A DNA stretch of 64,000 nucleotides. Origin: a virus. The position numbers and the translations under genes are program-made. Where the stretch lies: the IMG/VR virus record IMGVR_UViG_3300025881_000010, positions 18,527 to 82,526 of that record. The stretch is one strand, 5' to 3'. Numbering within the stretch: the first letter of the stretch is position 1; the number at the start of each line of letters is the position of its first letter. Below are positions 3,073 to 64,000 of this stretch, piece by piece. The notes beneath the pieces are model-generated. The model ran no database searches. It was given only the letters and a program-made list of their open reading frames with translations, and was not told where the DNA came from.

Positions 3073-3101
3073 AGTGTTATTGGGTTTAATTTATGTTAAA
3101 A

Positions 3102-3165: not shown

Positions 3166-5076
3166 TTAGAGTATGCCTAAAATTTGTTTCCATTTTTGTG
3201 CTAATTCTAAGTTACGTTTATATCCAAGTGAACCTTCTTCTTGATCGCTATTCATAGTATCTAGCCATGATGCGATAATAGTTTCAGGAGAATTACCTTG
3301 CTCATATTTTTTAAGCAATTCATTAATTCCTCCTTGTGCTGCAGCTACACTAAAAATATTGTTGTCAACACTTTTTTGTACTCTGGTAGGATCTACATTA
3401 CCATCTCCACCACTTAAATGATCAAAAGCCATGTAGAATGATTTCATCATATCATAACGATTACTTTGTCCAGCACTATTAGCACCAAAGTATTCTTCAC
3501 CTTCACCTTTGAAAGCATCATTATTGAAAACTTTAGTTTCCAACATGTTCTTAGCAGATTCAAATTGAACTTGTTGTTCAGTTTCAAGATTTTTAGCGCT
3601 ATTAATAAGTTGTAAACCTTCATTCTGCATCTGGACAGTTTCAGTAATATCGTCTGCAGGCATTAATTGAGAAAGTTTAGTTTGCATCATAGGATCTGCG
3701 ATATCTACTTTCTTATAAAAAATTTCGCCATCTTCATCTTGAAGGGCAATAACCGTAGCCATTTTTACATTGTTAGTATATCCAGCTTCCATTTTAGCAT
3801 TAGACTTTTTATCAATTTTTCCATCAGATTCATATCGGTCCATAAGCAAAGCATCAGTTTCATCACTATCCATATAAGATTCTAAAGCTGTAGAAACTCC
3901 AAGAATTTTAAAGTTACCTCTGTAATCTTCAGGATCTATAGAATTGTTACCGGTAACTTTCACACCATCTTCACGATACATATCTTCAGTAGGTGCAAAT
4001 CCCATTACCATTCCGTTCTTAATTTCAAATCCCGGAAGTACACTACTTACAATTTCATTTTCATGCCCTGGGAATACATGATATCCTTCTTTAAGACCTA
4101 ACCATTCATCATCTATCCAATCTGAATCTTTAGACTTAGCAGTAAATTTATCTTTGATCATTACTGCAGCGGCCTTATTAGTTCTTTTTAAGTTTTCTAT
4201 TAACTTACCATCATAGCCACCTTCAGAACTTGGTTGGTTAATACGAGATACATTAATATCGCGATCAACTCCAGCGACAAAAGTATTGTACATATTAAGA
4301 TAACTTTTACGTTTTGGATCCGATTCTTTTGCATATTTAGCTTTTGCGGCAGCTTCAGTAGCGGCAGCTTTAATTTTAGCAGTGTTACTTCCTAAACCAC
4401 CATATCCCATTTTTTTACCAAACTGAACTAATTGCTCCCATGTTGGTTCTGGACGATCAGGATATGTGATACCATAATTGGCACGAACTTTCATCATGTT
4501 ACTCTTATGAGTAAGTATATTTTCTATTGGCATTTCAGTACCATAATCAAATAATTCTGAAGGTGGTATTTCTACCTCAGCCATCATACCTTTATAACTA
4601 ATTTCAGAACCATCATCTAAATTATAATAATCCTCCACTGATTTTAAATCAGTAGGAGAGATTAAATGACCTAATCCTTTCTCCTGAGCCATTCTTATTT
4701 TAGCAAGATTTTCAGAATTTTGACGATAGCGTTGAGCTTCTTCTGATTCTAAAATACCGTTTTTAATTTTATTGGTATATGAAGCACCACCATTAGCCAT
4801 AAAATCAGCTTTAGAACCACCATATTTTGCCATCTGATCTCTAAGTTCAGATTGCATAATTTTAGCTCTATTGTTAATTCTATTGCGATCCTTTTCAAGC
4901 ATGCCACGAGATTCCTCATATATTTTTTGAAAGGATTCTTCTTGCATTCTTTGTGCTTCAACACTAGCTGCCTTGTCTTGATTGACACGCTGATCCATTC
5001 TTTCTAATACAGAAAGTTGTTGAACCGCAGCTTCACGTTTATCAGGGCTTTGAGCCAGTCCTTGAAGTCCGTACAT
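3166..5076 (-). CDS. Putative virion ejection/cargo protein (636 aa)
   Basis: Helical, charged N-terminus; lies in the crAss-like cargo gene block between the muzzle and the giant protein. Confidence 0.55.
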   Translation of the reverse strand: MYGLQGLAQSPDKREAAVQQLSVLERMDQRVNQDKAASVEAQRMQEESFQKIYEESRGMLEKDRNRINNRAKIMQSELRDQMAKYGGSKADFMANGGASYTNKIKNGILESEEAQRYRQNSENLAKIRMAQEKGLGHLISPTDLKSVEDYYNLDDGSEISYKGMMAEVEIPPSELFDYGTEMPIENILTHKSNMMKVRANYGITYPDRPEPTWEQLVQFGKKMGYGGLGSNTAKIKAAATEAAAKAKYAKESDPKRKSYLNMYNTFVAGVDRDINVSRINQPSSEGGYDGKLIENLKRTNKAAAVMIKDKFTAKSKDSDWIDDEWLGLKEGYHVFPGHENEIVSSVLPGFEIKNGMVMGFAPTEDMYREDGVKVTGNNSIDPEDYRGNFKILGVSTALESYMDSDETDALLMDRYESDGKIDKKSNAKMEAGYTNNVKMATVIALQDEDGEIFYKKVDIADPMMQTKLSQLMPADDITETVQMQNEGLQLINSAKNLETEQQVQFESAKNMLETKVFNNDAFKGEGEEYFGANSAGQSNRYDMMKSFYMAFDHLSGGDGNVDPTRVQKSVDNNIFSVAAAQGGINELLKKYEQGNSPETIIASWLDTMNSDQEEGSLGYKRNLELAQKWKQILGIL

Positions 5077-5077
5077 A

Positions 5078-7492
5078 TTATTGGGTTTTATAGTAATCGT
5101 TCATACTTGCTATTTGATTTTCTAAACCTGAAGCTAAACCGGGAGGGGCAATTCCCGGCGTAGCAAGCTGTGGAGCAACACCTCGATTCTGGGGCGAATT
5201 CGGTTGAGGCATTGTTTCTGCTTTTAATTCAGGCTGAGCAAGACCATTCATAGGTAGGGTTACTGGATTAACCGTTGCTCTTTGGAGTTGGGGAGAAGGG
5301 GGCAGATTAAGTTGTAATGGTTCATCAGTAAAAGGTTTAGGTTGAGGTAATGTAGAAGCTACTTCTTCTACAGGACGTTTACCACCGGCCAAAGCTTCTT
5401 CTCTACTCATTGCTAATAAACCATAATTTCCAGTTTGTTTAGCTAGATCTATATTATCCATGTTGATACTAGCTAAATCTATCTCGGGATTTTGTTGCAT
5501 GAAATCTATCATCTTTTCTGCATTACCAAAATCTCTACTTCCATTAGCCATTAAATTATCCACAACACTTTGTTGTGTAGAATTTAAATTACGGAAACGT
5601 TTATCGAATTTTTCTGCTTGCATCTTTTCATCTGCAAGAATACCAATATTTTTTTCATAATGACTACGAGTTCCTTTTTTTGTTCCACTACCATCATCTT
5701 TCATGTTAGGATCAAAACCAAACATATCTTGCATCAAATAACTTTTGTACATATGATTGGCACTTCCAGGACCATTCTCTCTCGCATATTGTAAATCATT
5801 AATCATGCTTGCAAATCCAGCGTTAGCAACTTGCTCACCTCGATTTCTTTTAAGCATAGCTTCTTGATATTTAATACCATGATTAGCTACATCTCTATTG
5901 GTATCAAAATCATTGATATACTTTACCGCTTCACCATATTGCTGAAATGCTTTTTCTTTAGCTTCATAATCAGCAATTTCCATATCTATAATACCTCTAG
6001 TTTTAGCAACTTCAAGCATTCCTTGATTACCAAGAATTGTAGCTCTGTTCCCAGCTGAAGCATTGACAATATTTCTAAGACCACCATCATAAGCTTCAGT
6101 AATATTATTTGCCATTTGAGCTTCTTTCTCAGGTGGCAATCCTATTTTAGATCTTCTTGCTAATTCTGCAGTAAGGTTTTTTACAGCTTCAGAAACTTGT
6201 TCTTCTCTTAAAGGTATATCTACCTCAGAAGCCATTTTATTACCTATTAATCCCATTGCCATTCCAGATACAGCATCTAAAGGCAACATTGGATTAAAAT
6301 TCTTTTTATCATAACCAAGTCCACTTGGTTCTGGAGCATTTAATCGAGCGTCTAAAATATCAGAAGTAAGACCTTTATTATTTTCAGAAACTTTAATCTT
6401 AGAACTTGTAGTTTCATCTCCAGTTTTTGCCGCACTTGTTTCCGAAGTACTCTTATCTGCAGGAACATCTTCAACAACTGTTTGTTTTGCTTGAGGTGGA
6501 AATTCTGAAGGATTTATTAAAGTACGTGGAGTATAATCTTCTTGATTAACTTTTAATTGTGTGGAAGATTTATTTTTTCCTACAGCTGTTGATTCTGTTA
6601 CTGTTTTTGGAAATATATTTTTATCGTTTTTATTTTTAGAACGATTTTTCCAAGACTCTAAGTCTTTATCTAAATTGGATTTTTCTCTACCAGATTTAGA
6701 TAAAGCTTTATCTTTTTCTTTCTGACTGTTTTGCTCTTTTATATAATCATTGAAAATCTCAACATCTCCGTTGTTTGAGATTTCCTGATACAATTCTCTT
6801 CTTGCTAATTCTTTAGTTTTTGTATCAACATCCATATTACTGATTGCTGAATCTCTTTTAACATAATCTGACTTTCGCTGATCAATTGTTTTTACAATTT
6901 TTTTTTCAGCCTCAGTAAGCACATCACCTCTTTTAGATCTTGCCATTACATCTTTAGTAACATCAATCTTATCTAAACCTTTTTCTGATAAAGCAGAATT
7001 ATAAGTATCAAGATATTTTTGCATTGCTACATTATCTACAGTAGCACCATCTACACCTTTTTCAGTAGATTTTCTGTATGCAGATTTACCTTGTGTAATA
7101 GCTCTTTTAGCAACTTCCGGAGATTGGAAATGATAAAACATTGTCATTTCCTCTAAGCTTAAATTTTCAGGATTTTTACCACTATCATATACTTCCATTG
7201 CTTTAGGAAGAATATCATTCTTTACATAGTGTTCAAAATAAGATTCTTGGAAAGCTGGAGAATTTATGAAATCTTCATAATTATCAGCTTTAAATCCATT
7301 GGCTTTACCAAATTTGGTAATTTCTTTCCACCAATATTTAGGAACAAATTGATATTTACCTAACGCATTGGATTGTTCATTAATAGCTTGATATCCCTTT
7401 CTAGGAGATTCAACTTTACTGATTCCAATTTTTAAATTTTGGACGATACGGTTAAGTGCTTGAGGACTTAAATTGAATGAAGGTTTCGGCAT
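5078..7492 (-). CDS. Virion ejection protein with N-terminal lysozyme/transglycosylase-like domain (804 aa)
   Basis: KVES...NALGKYQF is a lysozyme-fold motif (catalytic Glu, GxYQ); followed by coiled coils and a Pro-rich tail. Confidence 0.65.
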   Translation of the reverse strand: MPKPSFNLSPQALNRIVQNLKIGISKVESPRKGYQAINEQSNALGKYQFVPKYWWKEITKFGKANGFKADNYEDFINSPAFQESYFEHYVKNDILPKAMEVYDSGKNPENLSLEEMTMFYHFQSPEVAKRAITQGKSAYRKSTEKGVDGATVDNVAMQKYLDTYNSALSEKGLDKIDVTKDVMARSKRGDVLTEAEKKIVKTIDQRKSDYVKRDSAISNMDVDTKTKELARRELYQEISNNGDVEIFNDYIKEQNSQKEKDKALSKSGREKSNLDKDLESWKNRSKNKNDKNIFPKTVTESTAVGKNKSSTQLKVNQEDYTPRTLINPSEFPPQAKQTVVEDVPADKSTSETSAAKTGDETTSSKIKVSENNKGLTSDILDARLNAPEPSGLGYDKKNFNPMLPLDAVSGMAMGLIGNKMASEVDIPLREEQVSEAVKNLTAELARRSKIGLPPEKEAQMANNITEAYDGGLRNIVNASAGNRATILGNQGMLEVAKTRGIIDMEIADYEAKEKAFQQYGEAVKYINDFDTNRDVANHGIKYQEAMLKRNRGEQVANAGFASMINDLQYARENGPGSANHMYKSYLMQDMFGFDPNMKDDGSGTKKGTRSHYEKNIGILADEKMQAEKFDKRFRNLNSTQQSVVDNLMANGSRDFGNAEKMIDFMQQNPEIDLASINMDNIDLAKQTGNYGLLAMSREEALAGGKRPVEEVASTLPQPKPFTDEPLQLNLPPSPQLQRATVNPVTLPMNGLAQPELKAETMPQPNSPQNRGVAPQLATPGIAPPGLASGLENQIASMNDYYKTQ

Positions 7493-7504
7493 GATATGAG
7501 GGGT

Positions 7505-8224
7505 TTATCCTAGTAATCCTAATTGTTTTTTATTTTGTGATTTCATAGCTTCAAGGGTATCTAATCCTTCAGCCATACGATATTCATCTTCACGTTTTTT
7601 CTTTTCAAAGTAACTTTCTTTTGCCCCCTTTTCTTTAGCTACTCTTAATCTTCCACGATTTCTTGCTTTCCCGGCAATTACTCCAGATAAAAATGGAGCC
7701 GCTATTGTTAGACCTTTTTCAAAATCTGTAGCATCTTCACTTTTAAGTGTTTCTAATTGTCCTGAAAATGGATCTACAATTCCAGAAGCTATATCTCCAC
7801 CGCTTTCACCCCCCATAGCAGTACCGATATTCTTAGCTCCTTTTTCTACAGCTCTACCCGCAGCCATCCAAGGATTTGTTTGAGCAGCCATATCTTTAAC
7901 TCCTTCCATTGCCATCATTTGATTTTGCAATTTAGGATCATAATCATATCTATTCATAAAACCTGCATTACTGCCACCGGAACTCTCTGAAAGAGTTCCA
8001 ACGGCATCTCCTAATAAACCACCAATTTTACTTTGTGGTTTAGCAGCATTAGCAATTTTATTCTGTTGACTCATTTCTAAACCAGAAGTATCAATTTGAT
8101 TTAATTCAGGTTTAGAAAATGATAGTGAATTAGTTTTTAAAGAAGATACGGATTGAACCTGATCTCTTTGAGCTTCGGGTTGTCCGAACCTATCAAAAAA
8201 TTCATTTAAGGCTGTATCGTACAT
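7505..8224 (-). CDS. Putative small ejection/cargo protein (239 aa)
   Basis: Gly/Ala-rich amphipathic segments; directly downstream of the muzzle gene. Confidence 0.5.
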   Translation of the reverse strand: MYDTALNEFFDRFGQPEAQRDQVQSVSSLKTNSLSFSKPELNQIDTSGLEMSQQNKIANAAKPQSKIGGLLGDAVGTLSESSGGSNAGFMNRYDYDPKLQNQMMAMEGVKDMAAQTNPWMAAGRAVEKGAKNIGTAMGGESGGDIASGIVDPFSGQLETLKSEDATDFEKGLTIAAPFLSGVIAGKARNRGRLRVAKEKGAKESYFEKKKREDEYRMAEGLDTLEAMKSQNKKQLGLLG

Positions 8225-8232
8225 ATTGTAGG

Positions 8233-11200
8233 TTATTGGTGGCTAAATCTAAGGTGGTTTATAATTGCTAAGATATCAACTTTATTTTTGTTTAAGCTCT
8301 CTGCAGTAACTTCAACATATACCCAATTACCTCTAAGGTCTGCATATTCTTCAGGTATCTCACTTTCATTCTTAGCTGGTATAGTATGATTCCCTTCTCT
8401 AATTTTGTACCATCCATGAGTACCAGGAACAATTCTATATTGTTTTAAACTTGATCTATAAATTACTTGTTTTATTGGATAATCCAAAGAGGTAATTATA
8501 GAAATTCCTTTATGGATAAAAACTTTATCTAATTGAGCATTTACATAGAATCCTATCTTCAATTCTTTTTGCTCGCCAAATAAATTTAAGTAATCTCCTT
8601 CATTAAGTTCATGTAGCTTATTAGGGCTTCCGTTTACTGGAGAATAAATCTTCTTGTCAAAGTTAATATAAAGATCGTTATTATACTCATATTCACCATT
8701 AAAGACATTCAACATTTCATTCAATGAAAGTAATATGGATTTTCCACTTTTAGTACGAATCCTAATATTACTTTCTTTCATCTCATGATCATAGTAAGCT
8801 TCAGTATCAATAATTGGATCCTTTTTAAACATTTCAAAATAATCCATGTGAAGCAATTTCATAGCTAACATAGGTTTATCTAATTTGATAAACTCTACAT
8901 TTTTTTCATCAAAAAAGACAAATCCATAATCGCTTTCAGCTACAGCTCTACGTATAGAAGTTCCATAATCTGAAATGATTCTATGACCATCTACAACTTG
9001 TCCAGAACCTTGTTTAATATTGATTGGTTGTCCTGATTGATCAGTAAGTATTCTATCAGTTCCTATATATATCAATGAAGTTTGACCTTCTTGAATAGCA
9101 TAGATTTCTTCTTTATGTCTAAAGATGTTAGATACATCACCTTTATTTTTTTCTAATTCAGCATAGAAATTATTAGGCTTGAACATTGTCCATGCATCAT
9201 AGATCTCTCCAGCAATTTTTACATTTGAAACAGCAATTACATTTCCTAAATTAGGATCGTCTTTATACTGAAATGGTTTTGGTATAAATTGCTTTAATGA
9301 CTTAGAATTAAAGTATGCCGGATTGATCATTTCAGTTCTATTAATCTGAAAATTATGAGAACCTGAATCTTTGTAAAATTCATATCCATAAGTTTGCTTT
9401 GGCTCTACTTGCGTTTCTAAAACATTTACATAAGCCCAAGCTCCTTCTCTAAGCCATGTTTTAATTTCACCTTTAGCTCTACCACCTCCAGCATTATCAA
9501 ATTCTATTTCTTCAATTTCATTTTCTCCGGAATCATTTTTTGTTCTTATGTTAAGCGTAACATAGGTATCAGCACCACAGTCAAAAAATTGAGCTCCGCT
9601 ATTTTTTGAGACTGGAATGGTTTTACTTAAAGGAATATATTTGTTATTGCTATAAGCTTGTTCAGTTCTACCACCATACACAGCTTCTCTATTGTTCCTA
9701 AAAATATTTATCAAAGGATAAGTCTCATAAACAATATGATTGTTGATAGGTCCTCCTAATCTTATTTCTGAATCAATTTTATAGATATCTCCACCTATAA
9801 ATTCATCAGTAAATAAATCTTCTTCTGTTTTAATTATTGTAGTAGGATAACCAGGAGAAGGAATTACATGATTAAAAAGATCAGCTCTAGGTCTTCCACC
9901 TTGTAAATCCCATCTTCTTTGATAATCACTAAAGAACCAAGGCATACAAGGAAGTACTACAGCATTATTAGAAACATCGTGATTTATACCAAAAGCAGCT
10001 CCCGAGATTATTTCTCCACGATTTAAAGTTTCTGCAGCTTCTATAGAAAATTCTTTTTTAGCGTATTCTGTATTTTTAGCAAAAACAGAAACATTGATAA
10101 AGTAAGTTTCATGAGTACCACTTTCTCTATCTTCTCTAGCTCTTCTTGGTAATTCATCAGTATGATTATCTCCAGCTACTTCATTCTCTAAAATTTTTCT
10201 TGAGAACTTAGGATATATTTCTGGAGAAAAACCATTAAAGCCGCCATGTTCCATAATTGTTTTTGGAGAATGATCAGTATTTAATTTAGATACTACAGAT
10301 AACTTTGAAGTTTTTATATGTTGATCGGAAATCTTATTAAAATATAAGTCCGGAGAATCAAAATACATTAATCCTCTATGAGTAATTATACGTTCACTAG
10401 AACCATCACCTTCATAATTGAAGTTTTCTCCATTGGCATCATATTGTTGTAACCCTCTTTTTTCATAAACCGGACCGCCGTAATAAGGAAGATTCCATTT
10501 GTTTTTTAAAGGAACTGGAACATCATAATGAATTGAATCGTTATTATGCTGCATCCTGTTTAAAGGCGCTGCAATACCTTGACAAAGAATAGTTCTATCG
10601 TTCTCTGTTCTTTCTACATATAAAATTTGATACATAGAAATTAGATTTTGAATTTCACAGCTTAAACGAACTTCAAAATGCATTTTAATTCCATGACCAT
10701 AAAGAATACCATTCTCTACGGATTGATTTACGTACTTCTTAGAAGTTATTACAGGATTTCCTTGATCATCTATGTAAGATATTAAATCGTTGATTTCAGG
10801 TATCATTAAATCACCAATAGGAATAGCAAAATATCTACTTGATGCAGTATCATAAGATTGAAACGATAATCGGTAGATCTCACCTTTCATATTATACTTC
10901 TCTCCTGAAGGTTTTATGTAATCTAATATAGGCCCGTTACCATCGTATTTAGATTGAGCTTGATTTAATAAAGGCTCTTTGAATTCTCTATAAGTAACTC
11001 TAATTCCATTTCCTTGATTGAAACCAATTGATTCAGCACCATGAATAAAATTAGATTGATTTACTCCAGGATCTAAAAATTTAATGTCATTTTGAAAAGT
11101 TTCAATGAATTGATCATTATTAGATTCAAAAACATAATTACTAAAATCAGTAGCTATATTTTCATCTAAATAGGTAAACAATAACTGACCGTTATTGTCT

Positions 11201-14684: not shown

Positions 14685-15230
14685 TCATCTATTATGAGGC
14701 AAAGTCTGAATAGAATTAGTTGCTCCATAAATGATGTTGTATTCTGGAATAGCATCAAAACTAGGACATTCTTTAATTCTTTCGTTAGACTGAATAACAT
14801 TATCGTGATTTCTATCAGTAGAAAAATCTCTATGACCTAATACCATAAGATCTTTCTTAATATCCTTGCCATTATCTCTGAGCCAGTAAACAGCTTCAGA
14901 TATGCATTTATGAATACCTACTTTTTGTAAATCAGTTCTGGTATCTTCAGCAATATAAATTCCTGATTTTGATTTCTCATAATTGATACCACCAACATAA
15001 GAGATATGAATACATTGAGAGTTGAATCCACCAACTCCATTTGTTACTCTATTAAAATCATATAGCTCGGCAATCTGACCACCTCTTTCTACAATACGAT
15101 GATAACCTCCAGTATGCCATCCTCGGCCACCTTTAGTTTTAGGTCTTAAAAAATAATCTTCAACTGCAAGTGCAGATTTAAAACCTGCAGTACAGTGAAT
15201 AACAATGTACTTAATCTGGGGGGCTCTCAT
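14685..15230 (-). CDS. Endolysin, N-acetylmuramoyl-L-alanine amidase (Amidase_2 / T7 lysozyme family)
   Basis: IVIHCTA, GW..GYH, GHRD and KECPSFD zinc-ligand motifs. Confidence 0.92.
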   Translation of the reverse strand: MRAPQIKYIVIHCTAGFKSALAVEDYFLRPKTKGGRGWHTGGYHRIVERGGQIAELYDFNRVTNGVGGFNSQCIHISYVGGINYEKSKSGIYIAEDTRTDLQKVGIHKCISEAVYWLRDNGKDIKKDLMVLGHRDFSTDRNHDNVIQSNERIKECPSFDAIPEYNIIYGATNSIQTLPHNR

Positions 15231-15882
15231 TTTCGTAGTCTTTTAAATGTTCATATGATTTGTTCTTTTTTTCAAAGATATCTTTACCTTCAAAAAATTT
15301 TAAGATTTTTAATTCAAATATTGCTTCAACAATAGTAAAGATAGAAGCTTTTTTGTCATAGATCACAGTGGAGTTCTCTCCAATGCTTTTAAACTCATAG
15401 TACCAAAATATAGCTACAGGAGCTTTACATAAAGCTTCTGTTGTAAAATCAAAAAAAGTTCCATTGTCTTCTAATAGTTTTGTAACAAAATATAGATATC
15501 CAAGAAGCGACATACATTTAAAAAAAACGAACTGAAGTCTTTTTGCACTAAAAGCGTTTCTCTGCATTTTAGCAATAAATAGATCTACTTGTTTTTCTTC
15601 AATCTCGGTATCTAAAGCTCTTTGTTCATAGTAACGAAATAAAACTTTACTTTTTCTTACTCCGTAATAAGTATTAAAAAATACTGTCAAAAAAACTAAG
15701 GAAAGAACCATATTGGTAGTTCCAAAGTATTCTTGTTTCATAAAAATCTCTATGAATTCTCCACTTAAAGTAACTCCTATTGCGGCAAATGTGGTTTTAT
15801 ATCCATTGGCGTAGGCTAAAGCACCAATTTTTTTTAACCACTGCGTAAGTAGTAGAATTCTTATACTGTCTGCATTCAACAT
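15211..15882 (-). CDS. Putative holin
   Basis: Several TM segments, EFKSIGEN motif (holin_4-like); overlaps the endolysin start. Confidence 0.6.
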   Translation of the reverse strand: MLNADSIRILLLTQWLKKIGALAYANGYKTTFAAIGVTLSGEFIEIFMKQEYFGTTNMVLSLVFLTVFFNTYYGVRKSKVLFRYYEQRALDTEIEEKQVDLFIAKMQRNAFSAKRLQFVFFKCMSLLGYLYFVTKLLEDNGTFFDFTTEALCKAPVAIFWYYEFKSIGENSTVIYDKKASIFTIVEAIFELKILKFFEGKDIFEKKNKSYEHLKDYENESPPD

Positions 15883-15954
15883 ATTGGGGGCTGTTGGGGG
15901 GTTCGTATCTTATTGTTTTTTAATATAATGCTAATAATGAAAGCAGTACAGTAC

Positions 15955-29386: not shown

Positions 29387-29510
29387 TTTTTTAAATTTTA
29401 AGGTTATAAAAATTTGTTTTTATAGTCCTTAAACTTCACTACCATTGGCTGATCGGTTAAAGGGGGTAATTGTAATAAACATAATTTCAAACGGCTTTGC
29501 CTGTTATCCA

Positions 29511-32858: not shown

Positions 32859-32882
32859 TGGGGATATTTTAAGATAAAAATA

Positions 32883-35090
32883 TTAATTATTATTTATTTT
32901 CTTATGATGTTCGTTCAAAATGAATGACATAGGATCATGACCGTATTTGTCAAGTATATCTTGTCGCTCTTTCTCAATGTATCTTTGATTCTCTACAATA
33001 GTACTTTCATACTTTTCTTTTTCATATCCTTCAAGATCATATTCTGGTTTGAATTGAATTAAATCTTCATCGTAAGAATAAGGATCTTTCTTGTTTGTTA
33101 ATTGTCCAAAGGTTTGATATTCGTATTGTCCGTTTTCATTTACAACCCAAGTTCCTGCACCATCTAATTCAGAAACATCATTATGGTCTTCTTCTATACC
33201 ATCGGTAAGATCTCCGAAAATACTCATTTTATAAATCATTGCCATTGCAAAAGCAGAACCTAAATCTGAGTTTTCTTCTCCGAAGTCAATAAGATGCAAC
33301 AATATTTCTTCAAACCAGATATTATTCCAGAAATTATTAACCTCAGCTTTTAAAAGCTTCGCAGATAATTTCCATGAATGCTGATTGGACATTTTAAATC
33401 CATATGTATTCGCAGCATTAGAACTATAACCATCTATATCAGGTCTTCCGGCAAGATGCTTAGTACCACCACAATCAATGAAATGTTGCTTGATAGCAAT
33501 CTTAGTATATTCCAGTAGCATTTCTGAACCATAATATACCGTTAGTCTGAATGTTTGAGAATAGAAGACATCATCTTCATCTGAAGTTCCACGATCTAGT
33601 ATATACGCGATAGGGAGATTGCAAACTTTATTTATACTGTAGAAACAGCGATACACAATCGTTGCACCTTCAGAACCAGTACCTTCTTTTACTTCATCAT
33701 CATAACTATCACAAGCAACTAAGTCAGGACAGTAAGGAAGATTTTTGGAATCAATAGGATCCATAATCTTCTTAACAGTACCAAATTCTTTATCATCTAC
33801 AAAAACAGCTTTAGAACCTCTAGTGAAATGTATCTTGTCATATTCTTTCAAGTTTTTGGCTCTGGCCGCAAGCTTTTCAGTTATAGGATCATTAGTCTTC
33901 CACTCAATTCTACCTGTCTTAATTTCGTAAGGGCAGTTATCAAGATTTGCTAATTGAGCATTAAGTTTTTGGCGATTTAAATAACCACCTGAATTCTTAA
34001 TGAAAATATCAGCTTCTTTAAGTGGGTATGATTGAATATGTTTTACATAACCTTCAGAACCTTCTTTTTCTAAACGCTCTTTAATGATGTGCTCATGAGC
34101 AGCTTTAGAATTTGTTCTACCTGTACGGAAATCAAAGAATGATATTTTTTCTCCTGTTTCTTCATCAGGAATTCCATCTCCAGGATAGTAATCAGTAGCA
34201 GAAACAAAAACTTTTTTAAGGTTGTAAGTTTCTTTACGGCTATGCCACATGCTCTTATATCCTTTAGAACCTTTATCAATTTCTCCACCGGTACCATATA
34301 CAAGTGGTGTTCCAAATTGAATAGATCCTTCTTTGAAACATGGTTCGGTAGATTTGTATGCAGCAATTAAATCTTCGAAAAGTCCAGCTTCTTCAAAGAT
34401 TACCATAGAAAGCGATTTACCCTCAAAACCTGTTGGTTTTGCGTACATCGTTTTCATGTACATACTGGATTTTAAACCACCTTCTTTTTTCTGTTTGTTC
34501 TCTGTGTATTGGTAAGATAATCTGATTTCATCAGCATTACGAACACTGATACTGGACCTGTATTCAGGTCTAATATTGTCAAGTAGATATTGCACTTTCT
34601 CATAGAAATCTTGTGCTTTATCATCTTGTCCGGCAGCTACTCCAATTTTGTTTCCTTTGTAGAATAATAATTCATAAGCTGAAGAAGTAGAACCTACCCA
34701 CGATAAACCTACTCGACGTGGTTTACCAATAACAAGTCCATAATGACCTCTTTTAGCTTGATGTATTTCATCGAATAATCTCCTATCTAATTCTCTGTAG
34801 AATGGAGAACCCATGCTTTTTCTTGTTGCTCCTGGTTCCAGAAGCTCAATGTTACACATGTTTAGGTAAAAGTAATGTTCACCTGTGATTGAAGGCATGT
34901 AAGCTCTAGGCTTATAACCATTGATACAACGGTTATCTTGTTCATCCCAAAAATCATCATATGCGATAGTTCCCGGATTATAGTCAGGAATTTCTTCCTC
35001 TATAAGCGGACGATAGTATGTACTATCAAAACGATCCCAATTGATATTTACTTCCATAAGTAGGTTATTAAAAAAGGCACCGGTATTCAT
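32883..35090 (-). CDS. terL: Terminase large subunit (735 aa)
   Basis: Walker A KPRRVGLS, Walker B VIFEEAG, GTGG motif, nuclease-domain CDSYD; no intein or intron seen. Confidence 0.92.
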   Translation of the reverse strand: MNTGAFFNNLLMEVNINWDRFDSTYYRPLIEEEIPDYNPGTIAYDDFWDEQDNRCINGYKPRAYMPSITGEHYFYLNMCNIELLEPGATRKSMGSPFYRELDRRLFDEIHQAKRGHYGLVIGKPRRVGLSWVGSTSSAYELLFYKGNKIGVAAGQDDKAQDFYEKVQYLLDNIRPEYRSSISVRNADEIRLSYQYTENKQKKEGGLKSSMYMKTMYAKPTGFEGKSLSMVIFEEAGLFEDLIAAYKSTEPCFKEGSIQFGTPLVYGTGGEIDKGSKGYKSMWHSRKETYNLKKVFVSATDYYPGDGIPDEETGEKISFFDFRTGRTNSKAAHEHIIKERLEKEGSEGYVKHIQSYPLKEADIFIKNSGGYLNRQKLNAQLANLDNCPYEIKTGRIEWKTNDPITEKLAARAKNLKEYDKIHFTRGSKAVFVDDKEFGTVKKIMDPIDSKNLPYCPDLVACDSYDDEVKEGTGSEGATIVYRCFYSINKVCNLPIAYILDRGTSDEDDVFYSQTFRLTVYYGSEMLLEYTKIAIKQHFIDCGGTKHLAGRPDIDGYSSNAANTYGFKMSNQHSWKLSAKLLKAEVNNFWNNIWFEEILLHLIDFGEENSDLGSAFAMAMIYKMSIFGDLTDGIEEDHNDVSELDGAGTWVVNENGQYEYQTFGQLTNKKDPYSYDEDLIQFKPEYDLEGYEKEKYESTIVENQRYIEKERQDILDKYGHDPMSFILNEHHKKINNN

Positions 35091-35136: not shown

Positions 35137-35742
35137 CTACCTTTTATCTTGATAAAAAGTATTCTTCTTTTTTTCTGCTTTTTGTTCTAGTCTTGAAAGT
35201 TTGTACCCACCACGCGATGGCGAATTCTCGTAAACATCATTTCCTTGGATATACTCATTGTACTTTTTCAAATCTTCGTTAATCTTACGAAGTCGAATAG
35301 ATATCTTCTCCGGATTCTCGAAAATCATTTTTTCTCCATCTGAATTTTGTCGATTATGGGGCTTACCAAAATAACGTTCAGATTCTTTAAGATCTTCTAA
35401 AGCTGTGAGTTTTCTTTGGAAATGAATTTTACCTTCTTCTACAGTTAAATCAAATTGAAGTTCATCATACTTGATCAAAGCTGCTTGAATTTTTTCAAGG
35501 TTCCAATTAAAGGCACTTCTATCACCAATTACTTCTTCCATTGCTTTTTTTGGACGATCTGCATCGGAATAAAAACGTAAAGGAGATTTGTAATCTGCGG
35601 TGAGAGCAATTGCTGTAAAACATTTAAGACCTAATTCCTCGTCATAGATTACTTCACGGAATTCCTTGATGGATAATACTCCATCATCTTCTTCGGAAAG
35701 TTTTATCAATCCGGTTTTCGTGTCTATTGGGGTTAGATACAT
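35137..35742 (-). CDS. Putative terminase small subunit / conserved gene upstream of terL
   Basis: Position; DYKSP motif; helical C-terminus. Confidence 0.5.
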   Translation of the reverse strand: MYLTPIDTKTGLIKLSEEDDGVLSIKEFREVIYDEELGLKCFTAIALTADYKSPLRFYSDADRPKKAMEEVIGDRSAFNWNLEKIQAALIKYDELQFDLTVEEGKIHFQRKLTALEDLKESERYFGKPHNRQNSDGEKMIFENPEKISIRLRKINEDLKKYNEYIQGNDVYENSPSRGGYKLSRLEQKAEKKKNTFYQDKR

Positions 35743-39985: not shown

Positions 39986-40000
39986 GTATATATAAATAAC

Positions 40001-40027
40001 GTAAACCCGCTGATAGTGCGGGTTTAC
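40001..40027. terminator. Perfect 10-bp hairpin upstream of the groES-like gene (terminator or attenuator)
   Basis: GTAAACCCGC-N7-GCGGGTTTAC; weak U-tract on the minus strand. Confidence 0.6.
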
Positions 40028-40083
40028 AGGTGATTAATAAAATAAGTTAATAAATAATTATGTGGGGGGTAGCATGTAGTCAT
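40024..40083 (-). other. Micro-ORF MTTCYPPHNYLLTYFINHL (19 aa) / short RNA
   Basis: Between the promoter at 40109 and the hairpin; the stop codon lies in the hairpin 5' arm. Confidence 0.4.
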
Positions 40084-40108
40084 AGATTATTATCGCTTTA
40101 TGGGATTG

Positions 40109-40139
40109 CTAATCTAGTCAAAACGTCAAAATGGCGCAA
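40109..40139 (-). promoter_or_regulatory. Promoter (TTG-N20-TAGATTAG) containing operator ACGTCA-AAA-TGGCGC (40123-40137)
   Basis: Near-consensus -33/-7 elements with a palindrome between them. Confidence 0.55.
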
Positions 40140-40146
40140 GTATTAT

Positions 40147-40388: not shown

Positions 40389-40709
40389 CTAAAAGTTTGA
40401 GAATATAAATCCACAATCATTTGGATTGCGTTCTTTGCTATTAATAAACATAATTTTGTCTCGCTTTATATGATGCATCAATCTATCCAGATCTTCTTTA
40501 CTTACGCTAGGCAAAAAGTCTATATCGTAAACTAAAACTCTTGGCGGTTCTACAAAATACTGTAATCCCAATATAGGATCATAGTTGAATACCATCGTTG
40601 TCTGAATTGAATTTTTTAATTCTTCTGGATAAGGATTTACAGAAATCTTCTTATGAGTAATAGGAATTAAACCAGTCTCAATAGCCATCCTTCTTAATTC
40701 TTCGATCAT
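40389..40709 (-). CDS. Small protein containing a copy of the portal clip segment (106 aa)
   Basis: LDRLMHHIKRDKIMFINSKER vs portal LDRVMHHIKKDKIMFINSKDR; ATG 40709 follows the upstream stop. Confidence 0.8.
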   Translation of the reverse strand: MIEELRRMAIETGLIPITHKKISVNPYPEELKNSIQTTMVFNYDPILGLQYFVEPPRVLVYDIDFLPSVSKEDLDRLMHHIKRDKIMFINSKERNPNDCGFIFSNF

Positions 40710-40914: not shown

Positions 40915-40947
40915 AAAAAAAAAGCCGGCAATATTTCTATCACCGGC
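40915..40947 (-). terminator. Intrinsic terminator of the candidate sRNA
   Basis: GCCGGTGATA-GAAA-TATTGCCGGC followed by T9. Confidence 0.85.
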
Positions 40948-41066
40948 GCCCCCAATACCGAGAATAGTCCTACACTACTCTCTGCACTATTTCAATCTCT
41001 TTCAAATGCCTTTCTCAAGGTGGACATCAGTAAGTGTCTCATCATTACCATATCTGAAATAATACT
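40915..41066 (-). ncRNA. Candidate ~150-nt trans-acting sRNA (also holds a 19-aa ORF at 40992-41051)
   Basis: Own consensus promoter and strong terminator, no long ORF, G-rich seed GTATTGGGGGC at 40948-40958; the 5' end is an estimate. Confidence 0.6.
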
Positions 41067-41070
41067 TCTA

Positions 41071-41101
41071 CAAATATATACTACGTCATTTTGACGTGCA
41101 A
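41071..41101 (-). promoter_or_regulatory. Promoter TTG-N20-TATATTTG with perfect operator ACGTCA-TTT-TGACGT (41083-41097)
   Basis: Consensus Bacteroidetes -33/-7 with a palindrome in the spacer. Confidence 0.75.
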
Positions 41102-41102: not shown

Positions 41103-41131
41103 AAAAAAGCCTACTTTTTTAAGTAGGCTTT
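41103..41131 (-). terminator. Intrinsic terminator after 41141-41440
   Basis: AAAGCCTACTT-TTTT-AAGTAGGCTTT hairpin with T-tract. Confidence 0.75.
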
Positions 41132-41140: not shown

Positions 41141-41440
41141 TTAAGTGTAGACCAAATCATCCCGAATCCGAGGTTTTGTCCTCGAATCCAATAAGATCTC
41201 CGTACTAAGGAATCCCACAGTCTTAGAATAATCACCTTTTAATATCGCTACATGGTTGTCTACAAGAACAGCATGAGAGATTAAACGGTAATCAAAATCT
41301 AACACAGAAATTACTTCCGGGCCTACGCTTAACTCTTTGTGAACAGATGCAACATCATCAACATGAACAATACTAACCTCGGGGAGAGTTAACAAAGCCA
41401 AGCCAATCATTCCGCATCCTACAATCAGAATCTTACGCAT
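41141..41440 (-). CDS. Small protein with an N-terminal Rossmann-like GxGxxG motif (99 aa)
   Basis: KILIVGCGMIG...PEVSIVHVDD; could instead be a signal peptide. Confidence 0.55.
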   Translation of the reverse strand: MRKILIVGCGMIGLALLTLPEVSIVHVDDVASVHKELSVGPEVISVLDFDYRLISHAVLVDNHVAILKGDYSKTVGFLSTEILLDSRTKPRIRDDLVYT

Positions 41441-41498
41441 AATTGAAATAGTTGGTTAAACATTTATCGAAATACCAAGATAGTAATTTTTTTCAATT

Positions 41499-41529
41499 AA
41501 AAAACCCAGCCTGTAGGGAGCCGGGTTTT
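41499..41529 (-). terminator. Intrinsic terminator
   Basis: AAAACCCGGC-N9-GCTGGGTTTTTT on the minus strand. Confidence 0.75.
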
Positions 41530-41551
41530 ATAATCTAGATGGGGGTTTCAT
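41528..41551 (-). other. Micro-ORF MKPPSRL (7 aa) / ~60-nt RNA
   Basis: Between promoter 41567 and the terminator; A-rich leader. Confidence 0.4.
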
Positions 41552-41566
41552 TTATTTATCTGGAAG

Positions 41567-41574
41567 CAAATATA
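41567..41574 (-). promoter_or_regulatory. -7 promoter (TATATTTG)
   Basis: Consensus, intergenic. Confidence 0.6.
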
Positions 41575-42083: not shown

Positions 42084-42153
42084 GTTCGCGTAACTCCGAA
42101 AAATTTTCAGAAAAAATTAAAAATTGGATTCACGGTTGCTTAATAGGGTTTTA

Positions 42154-42190
42154 CCCCCTCCCCCCTTCGGGGTTTCGGGGGCCGCCCCCC
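42154..42190. other. GC-rich homopolymer/hairpin island at the divergence point of the two genome arms
   Basis: C5TC6-TTC-G4-TTTC-G5-CCG-C6 in an AT-rich genome. Confidence 0.7.
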
Positions 42191-42275
42191 TCTTGCGGAA
42201 ATTCAAAAAAGAGAGTCCGTTTAGGCTCATAGGCAGGTAGACTATTCTCCAACTAAATCCTTAATACATATAATC

Positions 42276-43677: not shown

Positions 43678-43716
43678 TAAGTCAAGTATTGGGTTAATTG
43701 TCAAGTTATATCATTG

Positions 43717-48202: not shown

Positions 48203-48236
48203 TTACTCACTGATATATCATTTAAACCCCCAAATT

Positions 48237-48614
48237 ATGGCAGGAATTCCAAGAAGAGACAAAGGCGCTGCAGCTATTGTACCTGAGTCTAACGAAGTGG
48301 TAAGACAAGTCAATTCAATGAATGCTCCAGAATCAGTACAAGCTACTGGTTTAGATCTGGAACCAAACAAAGATTTGTATGTCGCAGCACATTCAGCAAA
48401 TTTCGGTAATATCGTTCAAGGTATGGCCGCTTATGTAGGTAATCGTAGAGGATATGTGAAATCCAAAACGTTTACCGGTGTTAATCCTAATGAAGTGTTA
48501 GCTTCAGTAACCGTAGGTTATAAGGATAAAAAAGGTGTAGAGGAAACTAAAGTTTATACGGCAGCTGACTTAGCATCTGATTCAACATTATTCTTTCAGA
48601 AAGAAAGAGTATAG
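48237..48614 (+). CDS. Hypothetical protein in its own transcription unit (125 aa)
   Basis: Flanked by a promoter and a terminator. Confidence 0.75.
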   Translation: MAGIPRRDKGAAAIVPESNEVVRQVNSMNAPESVQATGLDLEPNKDLYVAAHSANFGNIVQGMAAYVGNRRGYVKSKTFTGVNPNEVLASVTVGYKDKKGVEETKVYTAADLASDSTLFFQKERV

Positions 48615-62886: not shown

Positions 62887-64000
62887 TCATAAAATATTTA
62901 GATTGACAGGGGAGCCCGGAGTTGGTAAAACGACCATACTTAAATATGTTCTTCGGAAATACATAGAATCCGATTTGAATGCTAACAATAAGTATGATAT
63001 AAGCGTAGCGGGAATATGTTTAGCGCACCAAGCCAAGAAAGTTCTTGGTGCGTATATTCCTAACGTTTTTACTTTTGCCAAAGCTTACGGAATGAAAGAA
63101 GAGTATGTGGAAGCTACTGGAGCACGTAGGTTCGTTTATGACGAAAAAAATAAAGATCCTACTATAGGAACTATGGACATTCCAATATTTGTTCATGATG
63201 AAGTTTCTCAGTACACACCGCAAATGCTTGAAATTGTATTGAACAGTACTCCAATGTTCAGTAAGATTATTTTAGTTGGAGATAGAGCGCAGTTACCGCC
63301 AATAGATCCTGATGGAATAATGGAAGAAGATTCTGATTCTCCAGTATTCTTTATGGACTTACCGGAAGAATGTACTCACAACCTTACAGGGAGAGTTCGT
63401 CAAACTGCAGGAAATAAAATCCTTGAATTATCAGATGTCATAAGAGCTGAAATATTTGGATTGAGAAGATTAGGAGTAGTGCTATCATATTTGAATAAAC
63501 CTCAAATGATAGATGGTCATGGATTTGATTTCATTTCATTTGAAAATTACCTTAGTCATTTAGAACAAAAGGAATTCATGGATTGTAGGTTAATAGCTTT
63601 TAGAAGAAAAGCCATTAACAAGCATAATCCGAATGTTAGAAATTATCTGTTAAATAATCCTACCAGTAAACTTGTCGATGGAGATATAGTTACTATGGAA
63701 GATAGTTTCTACAAATTTAATGATATGGGAGATGTAGATTACATACTCTATAATTCCGAAACATTTAGATTAACTGATGTTCGCACAGCTGTAAAGAAAT
63801 TTGAGCGTGGTGGTAATGAATATAGTATTGAAACTTACTTCGCAAATATTGAAGGAAGACAAGGAGATATTTTCATTGCACCTACAGAAGTAGGTGAAGA
63901 ACAATTAAAAGAAGCACTGGAAGAAATTGCTCAAATGGTTTATCGTAAGATATTGCATTGGGGAAATTTCTGGTCAGTAAAAAAAGCTTTTTGTAAATAT
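62819..64000 (+). CDS. Dda/RecD-like SF1B helicase, truncated by the window end
   Basis: Absent from the ORF track. GTG 62819 (MDITPTPSQ...), G.PGVGKTT, DEVSQ, VGDRAQLPPI, RVRQ. Confidence 0.9.
   Translation, partial: MDITPTPSQEVLVTKIDKFLNSSHKIFRLTGEPGVGKTTILKYVLRKYIESDLNANNKYDISVAGICLAHQAKKVLGAYIPNVFTFAKAYGMKEEYVEATGARRFVYDEKNKDPTIGTMDIPIFVHDEVSQYTPQMLEIVLNSTPMFSKIILVGDRAQLPPIDPDGIMEEDSDSPVFFMDLPEECTHNLTGRVRQTAGNKILELSDVIRAEIFGLRRLGVVLSYLNKPQMIDGHGFDFISFENYLSHLEQKEFMDCRLIAFRRKAINKHNPNVRNYLLNNPTSKLVDGDIVTMEDSFYKFNDMGDVDYILYNSETFRLTDVRTAVKKFERGGNEYSIETYFANIEGRQGDIFIAPTEVGEEQLKEALEEIAQMVYRKILHWGNFWSVKKAFCKY

What the first reader, a model, noticed from the sequence alone, without database searches (positions are those of the whole stretch)
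40915..41101. Candidate phage sRNA whose G-rich seed is complementary to the start regions of many late genes
Seen in sequence: a stand-alone minus-strand unit with a consensus promoter (TTG-N20-TATATTTG), no long ORF and a GAAA-tetraloop terminator plus U9. Directly 5' of the terminator stem, after an AATAGT/ACTATT hairpin, it reads GUAUUGGGGGC (40958-40948). The complementary motif occurs in the mRNA sense at or near many starts. Holin: GCCCCCAAUA(UG), 10/10, 15882-15891, with a second copy at 15892-15901. Gene 8224: GCCACCAAUA, 9/10. Giant virion gene: CCCAAUA, 3078-3084. Gene 5076: CCCAAUA, 5079-5085. Putative small terminase: CCCCAAUA, codons 4-6. Portal: CCCCAAU(G). RepL-like: CCCAAUAC. 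Plus-strand gene 48237: CCCCCAA. Shorter C-tracts lie at the starts of 7492, 12843, 13374, 15230 and 18061. Five exact CCCAATA hits near starts compare with a rough hand estimate of about 0.1 expected at this base composition. I noticed one internal sense copy (43383). Established: Bacteroidetes starts are normally A-rich and lack an SD. Inference: one trans-acting RNA co-regulates translation of packaging, ejection and lysis genes, for example as a lysis-timing or carrier-state switch. Whether it represses or activates is unknown.
Basis: partly seen in the sequence, partly recalled or inferred. Interest (0 to 1): 0.9.

Follow-up and report, generated by a model that had tools for sequence, protein, structure and literature searches.

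The report
Candidate phage small RNA, G-rich seed
An uncultured marine crAss-like phage carries a self-contained ~150-base, probably non-coding RNA gene with an exposed G-rich stretch that mirrors a C-rich tag at the starts of several of its own genes, so it may control their translation. No transcript or relative of the RNA is available, and related phages keep C-rich starts without it.

Summary
On the minus strand, 41101-40915 holds a perfect Bacteroidota promoter (TTG-N20-TATATTTG), about 150 nt with no ORF over 20 codons, and a 10-bp GAAA-tetraloop terminator plus T9. The predicted RNA is well folded (z = -4.1). GGUAUUGGGGGC (40959-40948) is a mostly unpaired linker between two hairpins.

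Its complement is enriched at gene starts. CCCAATA occurs in 5 of 101 start windows against 1 of 1371 internal windows. Seed 7-mers hit 6-8 start windows against about 0.8 in shuffles. The real seed beats all 40 flank-shuffled G5 seeds. Only one target is strong: the start of a 223-aa membrane protein (10 bp plus G-U, -21 kcal/mol).

No RNA data and no homologue of this RNA exist. Two complete relatives keep C-tracts at orthologous gene starts, with other flanks, but have no analogous RNA. So this RNA cannot explain the C-tract trait as a whole.

Rivals are a lambda-6S-like terminated leader, an unrelated RNA with a different C-tract reader, and complementarity to 16S rRNA.

This scan noted similar "phage sRNA mirrors start tags" cases in other Bacteroidota phages. 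Those are unchecked notes.

The parts
41106..41131 (-). Intrinsic terminator of the upstream 99-aa gene (41141-41440). It reads as a terminator on both strands and insulates the unit from upstream transcription.
41071..41101 (-). Promoter. TTG (41101-41099), a 20-nt spacer containing the perfect palindrome ACGTCAAAATGACGT (41097-41083), and the -7 box TATATTTG (41078-41071).
   Evidence: It is the only full-consensus hit that lies in an intergenic region in a usable orientation. Similar palindromes sit in two neighbouring leftward promoters (42083, 40137).
40915..41066 (-). Predicted ~150-nt transcript. The start is inferred about 5-7 nt after the -7 box and the end lies in the T9 run. It has a long branched 5' stem-loop, a 9-bp hairpin, a single-stranded linker and a terminator.
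   Evidence: MFE is -46.8 kcal/mol and z is -4.1 against 200 shuffles. The transcript ends are inferred, not observed.
40992..41051 (-). 19-codon ORF (MVMMRHLLMSTLRKAFERD). Its AUG is buried in the 5' stem. It is the basis of the small-protein and leader-peptide rival readings.
   Evidence: read from the sequence
40960..40982 (-). Hairpin SL2 (GAGAGUAGU / ACUAUUCUC, loop GUAGG), directly 5' of the seed.
40948..40959 (-). Seed linker GGUAUUGGGGGC. Predicted unpaired probability is 0.9 for GGUAUU and 0.4-0.7 for the G run, which competes only with G-U pairs to the U tail.
40915..40947 (-). Intrinsic terminator. A 10-bp stem GCCGGUGAUA/UAUUGCCGGC with a GAAA loop (40947-40924), then T9 (40923-40915).
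   Evidence: -15.9 kcal/mol
15880..15891 (-). Best predicted target: GCCCCCAAUAUG at the start of the 223-aa protein with several hydrophobic segments (15211-15882). It gives 10 Watson-Crick pairs plus one G-U that reach into the AUG, at -21 kcal/mol.
3078..3084 (-). CCCAAUA tag in the 30-nt 5' UTR of the 3969-aa virion RNA polymerase gene. It lies inside TTAAACCCAATAA.
5079..5085 (-). CCCAAUA tag 3 nt upstream of the start of the 636-aa gene.
35725..35732 (-). CCCCAAUA tag at codons 4-6 of the 201-aa gene.
43687..43694 (-).
32859..32863 (-). CCCCA directly before the portal start codon. With the AU of the AUG it reads CCCCAAU, 7 nt complementary to the seed.
48227..48233 (+). CCCCCAA tag in the 35-nt 5' UTR of the 125-aa gene 48237-48614.

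Best explanation
The locus is an independent small-RNA gene of a marine crAss-like phage.

How it is made (inferred):
- Host RNA polymerase starts at a consensus Bacteroidota promoter. The spacer of that promoter holds a palindromic operator shared with two neighbouring leftward promoters, so the three are probably co-regulated.
- Transcription stops about 150 nt later at a strong terminator.

How it folds (predicted):
- A large 5' stem-loop, a 9-bp hairpin and the terminator hairpin.
- A 12-nt single-stranded linker, GGUAUUGGGGGC, sits between the last two.

How it acts (inferred):
- The linker base-pairs with C-rich tags of the CCCAAUA type that lie between about -20 and +15 of several phage start codons.
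- The pairing is strongest with the 223-aa membrane (possibly holin-like) protein gene, where 11 pairs cover -9 to +2.
- Bacteroidia ribosomes ignore Shine-Dalgarno sequences and need an unstructured upstream region. A duplex there would block initiation, so repression is the likely sign.

What is seen, predicted or unobserved:
- Seen in the sequence: the promoter and terminator and the motif enrichment.
- Predicted only: the fold and seed accessibility.
- Not observed: the transcript, the pairing and its effect.

The RNA is at most a lineage-specific user of the C-tracts, not the explanation of the C-tract trait in the wider clade.
For: - Promoter and terminator match consensus and are insulated by an upstream terminator.
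- No ORF exceeds 20 codons, and the only AUG-started ORF (19 codons) has its AUG inside a stem.
- Fold z-score is -4.1.
- The seed is unpaired in the ensemble.
- The seed is the top-ranked segment of the RNA for complement enrichment at starts: TATTGGG in 5 of 101 against 1 of 1371.
- Seed 7-mer complements lie in 6-8 start windows against about 0.8 in composition-preserving shuffles, 0 of 300 reaching it.
- Duplexes of -12 kcal/mol or stronger occur at 16 of 101 starts against 27 of 488 internal windows. The real seed beats 40 of 40 seeds with shuffled flanks.
- The 223-aa gene start is the best sense-strand mRNA hit of a scan of both strands of the genome.
- It is the only intergenic terminator in the genome preceded by a G-run.
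- CCCAATA tags and this RNA are both specific to this genome among the four complete genomes compared.
- Tag positions are scattered from -26 to +17. That fits an antisense or binding site better than a ribosome-docking site at fixed spacing.
- Precedent in the host phylum: GibS pairs with start regions that lack a Shine-Dalgarno sequence (PMC7366714).
- Abundant non-coding RNAs are reported for crAss-like phage phi14:2, and its host-type middle promoters often precede small RNA (tRNA) genes (10.1101/2020.03.07.982082).
Against: - There is no sequence conservation to test. No homologue was found in 44 viral and 22 metagenome loci or in 3 complete relatives, so no covariation test is possible.
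- Only one target has more than 8 contiguous pairs. Energy ranking of all sense sites shows no dramatic concentration at starts.
- Perfect 10-mer matches between intergenic regions and gene starts are common by chance.
- Relatives G001 and G002 carry C-tracts at orthologous starts without an analogous RNA, and with flanks (CCCCCT) that a UAUUGGGGG seed would not fit.
- About half of this phage's own C-tracts are of that CCCCT type.
- The TTAAA 5' flank of the tags is not explained by the seed.
- The next ORF starts 19 nt after the terminator with no good promoter of its own, so the RNA could be a leader.
- A 19-codon ORF is present.
Confidence: 0.35

Rival explanations
1. Promoter-proximal terminated leader, as in lambda PR'-tR' (6S RNA). 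The ~150-nt RNA would be the default product of a promoter whose real cargo is the three small genes just downstream (40896-40147). These would be expressed only when the terminator is read through, by a phage antiterminator or a factor acting at the shared palindromic operator. The G-rich stretch would then be incidental or act in cis.
For: - The next ORF's ATG (40896) lies 19 nt after the T-run. The only promoter-like sequence between them is a poor TTG-N17-TAACTTTC that overlaps the terminator. No TAnnTTTG box lies there.
- A second operator-bearing promoter (40137) is likewise followed by a roughly 100-nt ORF-poor leader and a terminator (40028-40000). The ATG of the next gene (39985) lies only about 15 nt after that terminator.
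- The leftward module is punctuated by four terminators.
Against: - No alternative antiterminator structure was found when the 3' arm of the terminator was withheld.
- The terminator is strong: 10 bp, a tetraloop and U9.
- In relative G001 the analogous small RNA gene (tRNA-like) is followed by its own terminator, and the downstream genes have a separate promoter.
- This reading does not explain the seed-tag statistics.
- It is not exclusive with a trans-acting role.
Confidence: 0.25
2. The RNA is real but unrelated to the C-tracts. The tracts would be read by an older factor shared by the G000/G001/G002 clade, such as a C-tract-binding protein or a conserved G-rich element. The match of this RNA's linker to some tags would be coincidence.
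For: - C-tracts occur at orthologous genes in three genomes that share only 45-68% protein identity: virion RNAP, the 636-aa, 804-aa, 214-aa, holin-like and RepL-like genes, and the gene at -16157. Flanks and positions differ. TerL carries a tract in G001 and G002 but not here.
- C-tracts are absent in the sister group, G003 and L015.
- No analogous RNA exists in G001 or G002.
- The conserved GC-rich hairpin element between the divergent promoters has an extra free G5-6 run exactly in the four C-tract genomes and a C6 run in the two without.
Against: - No candidate RNA-binding protein was found among the ten proteins scanned, which included five of the six that had hits in the C-tract genomes but not in G003.
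- The hairpin element lies upstream of both divergent promoters, so it may not be transcribed.
- The correlation rests on one clade.
- The seed's flanks fit the tags better than 40 of 40 shuffled versions.
Confidence: 0.25
3. The tags are docking sites for the ribosome itself. TTAAACCCAATAA and CCCTTTAA are complementary to the 16S rRNA stretch UUUAUUGGGUUUAAAGGG of Bacteroidota. The tags would tether 30S subunits, much as the calicivirus TURBS motif pairs with 18S rRNA or as once proposed for the T7 epsilon enhancer. The sRNA shares UAUUGGG with that rRNA stretch by chance or as a mimic.
For: - The rRNA sequence was verified in 46 Bacteroidota genomes.
- A whole-16S scan found a 13-nt perfect complement in the virion RNAP 5' UTR and 11 nt before the 636-aa gene. 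No shuffle of 200 reached 13 nt. Five windows had 10 nt or more against 1.3 expected.
- This reading explains both the TTAAA 5' flank and the AATAA 3' flank. Permuting the A/T flanks reached the observed count in 1-5 of 300 trials.
Against: - The lead came from my memory after seeing the motif, so it is post hoc.
- Only two windows drive the signal.
- There is no signal with Flavobacteriaceae-type 16S (AAUCAUUGGG), which a marine host might well have, and none in the relatives.
- Spacing to the AUG is not fixed.
- From general knowledge, that rRNA region is buried in the 30S body. No such pairing is described in the Bacteroidia translation papers listed.
Confidence: 0.05
4. The unit is an mRNA for a 19-aa peptide (MVMMRHLLMSTLRKAFERD) with a long structured 3' UTR, or a leader-peptide attenuator.
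For: An ATG-started 19-codon ORF begins about 15 nt after the inferred transcription start. Four of its first nine codons are Met.
Against: - The AUG and most of the ORF are base-paired in the predicted 5' stem.
- No antiterminator alternative was found.
- There are no homologues to test for coding constraint.
Confidence: 0.08

Closest known systems
GibS, a trans-encoded sRNA of Bacteroides thetaiotaomicron (PMC7366714)
   Same: It belongs to the same host phylum and is an intergenic gene with its own promoter and terminator. A single-stranded seed pairs across start codons of mRNAs that lack a Shine-Dalgarno sequence and represses them.
   Different: GibS is chromosomal, and its seed is a long AU-rich 5' region of 30-50 nt. 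Here the gene is phage-borne, the seed is a 12-nt G-rich linker next to the terminator, and the targets are the phage's own genes. There is no sequence or Rfam similarity. GibS is experimentally shown; this RNA is only predicted.
c4 antisense RNA of phages P1/P7 (Rfam C4, RF01695) and similar phage immunity RNAs (my own knowledge)
   Same: It is a phage-encoded small RNA whose exposed loops pair with the ribosome-loading region of a phage mRNA and block its translation.
   Different: c4 is processed from a longer transcript of a temperate phage and acts on one operon (icd/ant). There was no match to the Rfam model. Here the candidate is a separate unit in a lytic-type crAss-like genome, with several dispersed candidate targets.
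Lambda 6S RNA (PR'-tR' leader) and Q antitermination (my own knowledge)
   Same: A strong promoter is followed by a short non-coding transcript ending at a strong terminator, with genes lacking an evident promoter directly downstream.
   Different: No Q-like protein or qut site was identified. The downstream genes are three small orphans, not the late operon.
Abundant non-coding intergenic RNAs of crAss-like phage phi14:2 (10.1101/2020.03.07.982082)
   Same: It is also a marine crAss-like phage of Flavobacteriia. It has highly transcribed intergenic RNAs of unknown function, and host-type tripartite middle promoters that often precede small RNA (tRNA) genes.
   Different: Those RNAs are long, early and persistent, and no seed or target has been proposed. 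No sequence similarity was tested or seen. My distant DNA search of the phage collection with this unit found only chance matches.

Membership tests
Trans-encoded base-pairing sRNA (GibS-type, Bacteroidota) | Own promoter and intrinsic terminator, not overlapping another gene | tested here: met
   TTG-N20-TATATTTG, a 10-bp terminator plus T9, and a terminator upstream. There is no ORF on the opposite strand longer than 24 codons.
Trans-encoded base-pairing sRNA (GibS-type, Bacteroidota) | A discrete stable transcript is observed | not testable with these tools
   Only one DNA run holds the sequence and no RNA run does.
Trans-encoded base-pairing sRNA (GibS-type, Bacteroidota) | Accessible single-stranded seed | tested here: met
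   Unpaired probability is 0.9 for GGUAUU and 0.4-0.7 for G5, by prediction only.
Trans-encoded base-pairing sRNA (GibS-type, Bacteroidota) | Seed complementary to translation initiation regions beyond chance | tested here: met
   Only one site has more than 8 bp.
Trans-encoded base-pairing sRNA (GibS-type, Bacteroidota) | Seed conserved, or co-varying with targets, in relatives | tested here: inconclusive
   No homologue was found in any related locus or genome. The flanking proteins are orphans.
Any curated RNA family (Rfam 15, including C4 RF01695, tRNA, tmRNA and leaders) | Match to a covariance model | tested here: not met
   There were no hits at gathering score. Only weak sub-threshold matches appeared nearby, none on the RNA's seed or terminator. 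ARAGORN found none.
Leader-peptide transcription attenuator | Alternative antiterminator structure that competes with the terminator | tested here: not met
   Folding without the 3' arm, or with it constrained, gave no antiterminator.
Lambda-type promoter-proximal terminated leader (6S/Q system) | Downstream genes lack their own promoter and depend on read-through | tested here: inconclusive
   There is no -7 box between terminator and ATG, only a weak TTG-N17-TAACTTTC. No antiterminator protein was identified.

The most novel reading that the evidence does not exclude
A clade of marine crAss-like phages marks the start regions of a conserved set of mostly virion and late genes with C-tracts. 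The host phylum's ribosomes ignore Shine-Dalgarno sequences, so this would be a phage-private translational code. G-rich RNA would read it.
Probability: 0.15. Interest if true: 0.85.

Novelty: new variant of a known kind. Interest (0 to 1): 0.55.

Why it matters
No small-RNA regulator has been described for crAss-like phages, as far as I know. They are among the most abundant phages in the gut and are common in the sea. How they time translation in hosts that lack Shine-Dalgarno recognition is unknown. If the RNA controls a membrane or lysis protein and several virion genes through a short shared tag, it would be a compact timing switch that can be tested with reporters.

Separately, C-tracts conserved at orthologous gene starts in a Bacteroidota phage clade are an unexplained signal. 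They deserve attention whichever factor reads them.

Tried and rejected
Searches for relatives or expression data that gave nothing:
- An exact 17-mer of the seed and terminator in viral contigs gave 9 unrelated loci that share only a 21-mer.
- A distant DNA search of the phage collection gave chance matches only.
- blastn and nhmmer of the unit against 44 related loci found nothing.
- Metagenome scans with the 323-aa neighbour found no relative. With TerL the best was 66-74% identity, no closer than the viral contigs.
- Protein searches with the 99-aa and 106-aa neighbours found only themselves.
- No RNA holder is listed among public sequencing runs.
- Laying the one DNA run showed a single near-identical contig and no variants.

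Ideas tested and set aside:
- Rfam at gathering and at E-value thresholds, and ARAGORN, found no family.
- A sigma-70-type promoter scan was not informative for Bacteroidota.
- A leader-peptide attenuator has no antiterminator structure.
- A plus-strand gene start next to the motif: there is no ATG and no ORF.
- C-tracts as promoter elements: rejected, because many end only a few nt before the ATG inside tightly packed operons.
- A protein specific to the C-tract clade: Pfam and PHROGs gave nothing useful.
- G-run hairpin loops in the convergent intergenic regions of G001 and G002 as analogues of the sRNA. One 10-nt match exists (TGGGGGGCAT against the TerL start of G001). Their flanks do not fit the general tag of those genomes, so this does not count as support.
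- The tRNA-like genes of G001 and G002 at the analogous place have no counterpart here.

Full report
CONTEXT. The window is bases 18527-82526 of an 82,526-bp virus record with 33% G+C.
- Its portal is about 22% identical to portals of gut crAss-like phages.
- It encodes a 3969-aa giant protein. An earlier first-reader note reads it as the virion RNA polymerase; I did not test that.
- The only public run that holds the sequence is a marine metagenome.
- Relatives in viral and metagenome contigs reach at most 63-74% TerL identity.
- I retrieved three complete or near-complete relatives: G001 (82.8 kb), G002 (82.4 kb) and G003 (76.4 kb).

THE UNIT.
- The upstream 99-aa gene ends with its own terminator (41131-41106).
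- Then come TTG (41101-41099), a 20-nt spacer and TATATTTG (41078-41071). This is the Bacteroidota -33/-7 consensus.
- The full pattern TTG-N17-21-TAnnTTTG occurs 10 times in the genome, as often as in shuffles (10.9). This is the only copy that sits in an intergenic region in a usable orientation, directly behind a terminator.
- The spacer holds a perfect palindrome, ACGTCAAAATGACGT. Related palindromes lie in two other leftward promoters, at 42083 and 40137.
- About 150 nt downstream is a 10-bp stem with a GAAA loop and nine T.
- Inside, the longest ORFs are 19 codons (ATG 41051) and 20 codons (TTG start, overlapping the terminator).
- Rfam and ARAGORN find nothing.
- The predicted RNA folds well, at -46.8 kcal/mol with z = -4.1. 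It forms a branched 5' stem-loop that buries the AUG of the small ORF, a 9-bp hairpin (40982-40960) and the terminator hairpin.
- GGUAUUGGGGGC (40959-40948) is a linker between the last two. Its unpaired probability is 0.9 for GGUAUU and 0.4-0.7 for the G run. The G run competes only with weak G-U pairs to the U tail.

I judge a discrete transcript likely (about 0.8) and a non-coding nature probable (about 0.65). Neither is observed.

THE MOTIF. The enrichment is real.
- In -25..+20 windows of about 100 crude gene calls, CCCC occurs 19 times against 2.7 expected.
- AACCCC, CCCAAT and CCCAATA are among the most enriched words relative to internal sense windows. CCCAATA occurs in 5 of 101 against 1 of 1371.
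- Of six sense-strand CCCAATA copies, five lie at starts.
- Within the RNA, the seed is the top-ranked segment for complement enrichment.
- Against shuffles that keep each window's composition, seed 7-mer complements occur in 6-8 windows against 0.7-0.9. None of 300 shuffles reached that.
- In duplex energies, 16 of 101 starts reach -12 kcal/mol against 27 of 488 internal windows. The real seed beats all 40 seeds that keep G5 but have shuffled flanks. So the UAUU flank matters, not only the G run.

LIMITS OF THE TARGET CASE.
- Only one site pairs strongly. It is the start of the 223-aa protein with several hydrophobic segments (GCCCCCAAUAUG; 10 pairs plus G-U; -21 kcal/mol). This is the best sense-strand mRNA hit of a scan of both strands of the genome.
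- The other tagged starts offer 7-8 pairs.
- Perfect 10-mer matches between intergenic sequence and start windows are common by chance.
- About half of the C-tracts here are followed by T (CCCCT type). They do not fit the seed.
- Many tags carry a TTAAA 5' flank that the seed does not explain.

RELATIVES.
- No sequence homologue of the RNA exists in 66 related loci.
- The flanking small proteins are orphans in a 5.8-billion-protein database.
- The C-tract trait is shared by part of the group. CCCC near starts is 20 against 4.8 expected in G001 and 16 against 9.3 in G002. Similar excess appears in L010, L019-L021 and L048. It is 0 against 2.9 in G003, and the L013-L018 group has none.
- The tracts sit at orthologous genes: virion RNAP, the 636-aa, 804-aa, 214-aa, holin-like and RepL-like genes, and the gene at -16157. 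TerL carries a tract in G001 and G002 but not in this phage. Positions differ (upstream, or just inside the ORF), and in G001 and G002 the flanks are mostly CCCCCT.
- A search for terminators preceded by G-runs found the sRNA terminator as the only intergenic case here. There was no analogue in G001 or G002.
The clade-wide C-tract trait is older than this RNA and independent of it.
- The CCCAAUA version of the tag and the UAUUGGG seed are both specific to this genome. That is weak co-occurrence evidence for a lineage-specific link.

RIVAL 1: A TERMINATED LEADER.
- The next ORF starts 19 nt after the T-run without a recognisable -7 box.
- A second operator-bearing promoter (40137) has the same design. 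A leader is followed by a terminator (40028-40000) and then the next gene. First-reader note e1-6053601 calls that downstream block the groES/groEL operon.
- This resembles lambda PR'-tR'. I found no antiterminator fold.
- This reading does not exclude a trans role.

RIVAL 2: AN OLDER, SHARED C-TRACT READER.
- No RNA-binding protein emerged among the candidate proteins scanned.
- The conserved GC-rich hairpin element between the divergent promoters has an extra G5-6 run in the four C-tract genomes and a C6 run in the two without.
- That correlation is suggestive but rests on a single clade.

RIVAL 3: RIBOSOMAL RNA.
- TTAAACCCAATAA in the virion RNAP 5' UTR is a 13-nt perfect complement of the Bacteroidota 16S stretch UUAUUGGGUUUAA. 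I verified that stretch in 46 genomes.
- A whole-16S scan puts this above all 200 shuffles.
- The signal rests on two genes, fails with Flavobacteriaceae-type 16S and is absent in the relatives.
- From general knowledge it also involves a buried rRNA region.

RIVAL 4: THE 19-CODON ORF. It remains possible that the ORF is translated.

COMPARISON WITH KNOWN SYSTEMS.
- It works most like GibS of Bacteroides, an sRNA that pairs across start codons lacking a Shine-Dalgarno sequence (PMC7366714).
- It also resembles phage antisense RNAs such as P1 c4 (my own knowledge).
- It is not a member of any curated RNA family.
- In crAss-like phage phi14:2, abundant non-coding RNAs and host-type tripartite promoters in front of small RNA genes are documented (10.1101/2020.03.07.982082). 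That makes a small RNA gene at this place plausible.
- Relatives G001 and G002 carry an unusual tRNA-like gene plus terminator just downstream of the same divergent control region. There it follows the region directly. Here two protein genes lie between the region and this unit.
- Earlier notes of this scan report several Bacteroidota phages with a small RNA that mirrors start tags. I did not test them and give them no weight as evidence.

VERDICT.
- The unit is very probably a real small transcription unit.
- A trans-acting role on the 223-aa gene, and perhaps the CCCAAUA-tagged starts, is the best single explanation at about 0.35.
- The broad claim of one RNA co-regulating packaging, ejection and lysis genes is weaker, at about 0.2.
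- The C-tract trait itself remains unexplained and is the more general puzzle.

Noticed in passing
window 42145-42232 (between the divergent promoters); also L011:2585-2670, L010:3161-3245, L059:45-130, L015:4492-4576, L073:2166-2250: A conserved non-coding element. GGACTCTCTTTT is followed by a GC-rich hairpin (CCCC...GGGG, invariant in 6 sequences) whose inner stem differs in each genome (CCCC/GGGG, CCGC/GCGG, CCCG/CGGG, CTTT/AAAG). The four genomes with C-tracts at starts have an extra 5' G5-6 run, and the two without have C6. It may be an origin, a regulator site or a virion-RNAP promoter.
   Followed up: partly
window 42196-42232 (+), 40105-40140 (-); L011:2715-2755 and 2945-2985; L010:3285-3325: A second promoter-like class, cTTGCG-N21-23-(A/C/T)TTAG(G)C, is conserved between this phage and its relatives. 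In L011 it lies upstream of the tRNA-like gene. It may correspond to the 'tripartite middle promoter' reported for phi14:2.
   Followed up: partly
window 35054-35090 (-): The TerL start is probably the ATG at 35056 (MEVNINW, as in all relatives) rather than 35090. The upstream ATG lies in the loop of a terminator-like hairpin.
   Followed up: partly
window 29387-29510 (-) and the orthologous leaders in about 20 loci: The roughly 125-nt leader of the major capsid gene is conserved (CTTTAAC-N-AGCCAATGGTA...). In the C-tract clade a C5-6 run sits directly before CTTTAAC, about 76 nt upstream of the ATG.
   Followed up: partly
window 40389-40709 (-): A 106-aa orphan protein contains a segment that matches the portal gene region of every relative by tblastn.
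   Followed up: partly
L011:2790-2945; L059:255-480: Relatives carry about 105-nt tRNA-like genes (acceptor and T arm clear) that ARAGORN calls only with an intron (Ala-AGC with 25 nt; Tyr-ATA with 18 nt). Rfam does not recognise them.
   Followed up: partly
window 40000-40140 and 41495-41570 (-): Two further short ORF-poor segments end in terminators and contain C6 (40064) and C5 (41541). The first follows an operator-bearing promoter. They could be leaders, decoys or targets (compare note e1-6053602).
   Followed up: partly
G003 (L064) 4886-9459: My simple ORF caller left a 4.6-kb 'intergenic' gap inside what should be the giant virion gene region of relative G003. This may indicate stop-codon recoding or frameshifts.
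   Followed up: no
window 63945-64000 and genome bases 121-180: The record's two ends repeat the same sequence. It is a terminal repeat, so the assembly is circular or carries a direct terminal repeat.
   Followed up: no
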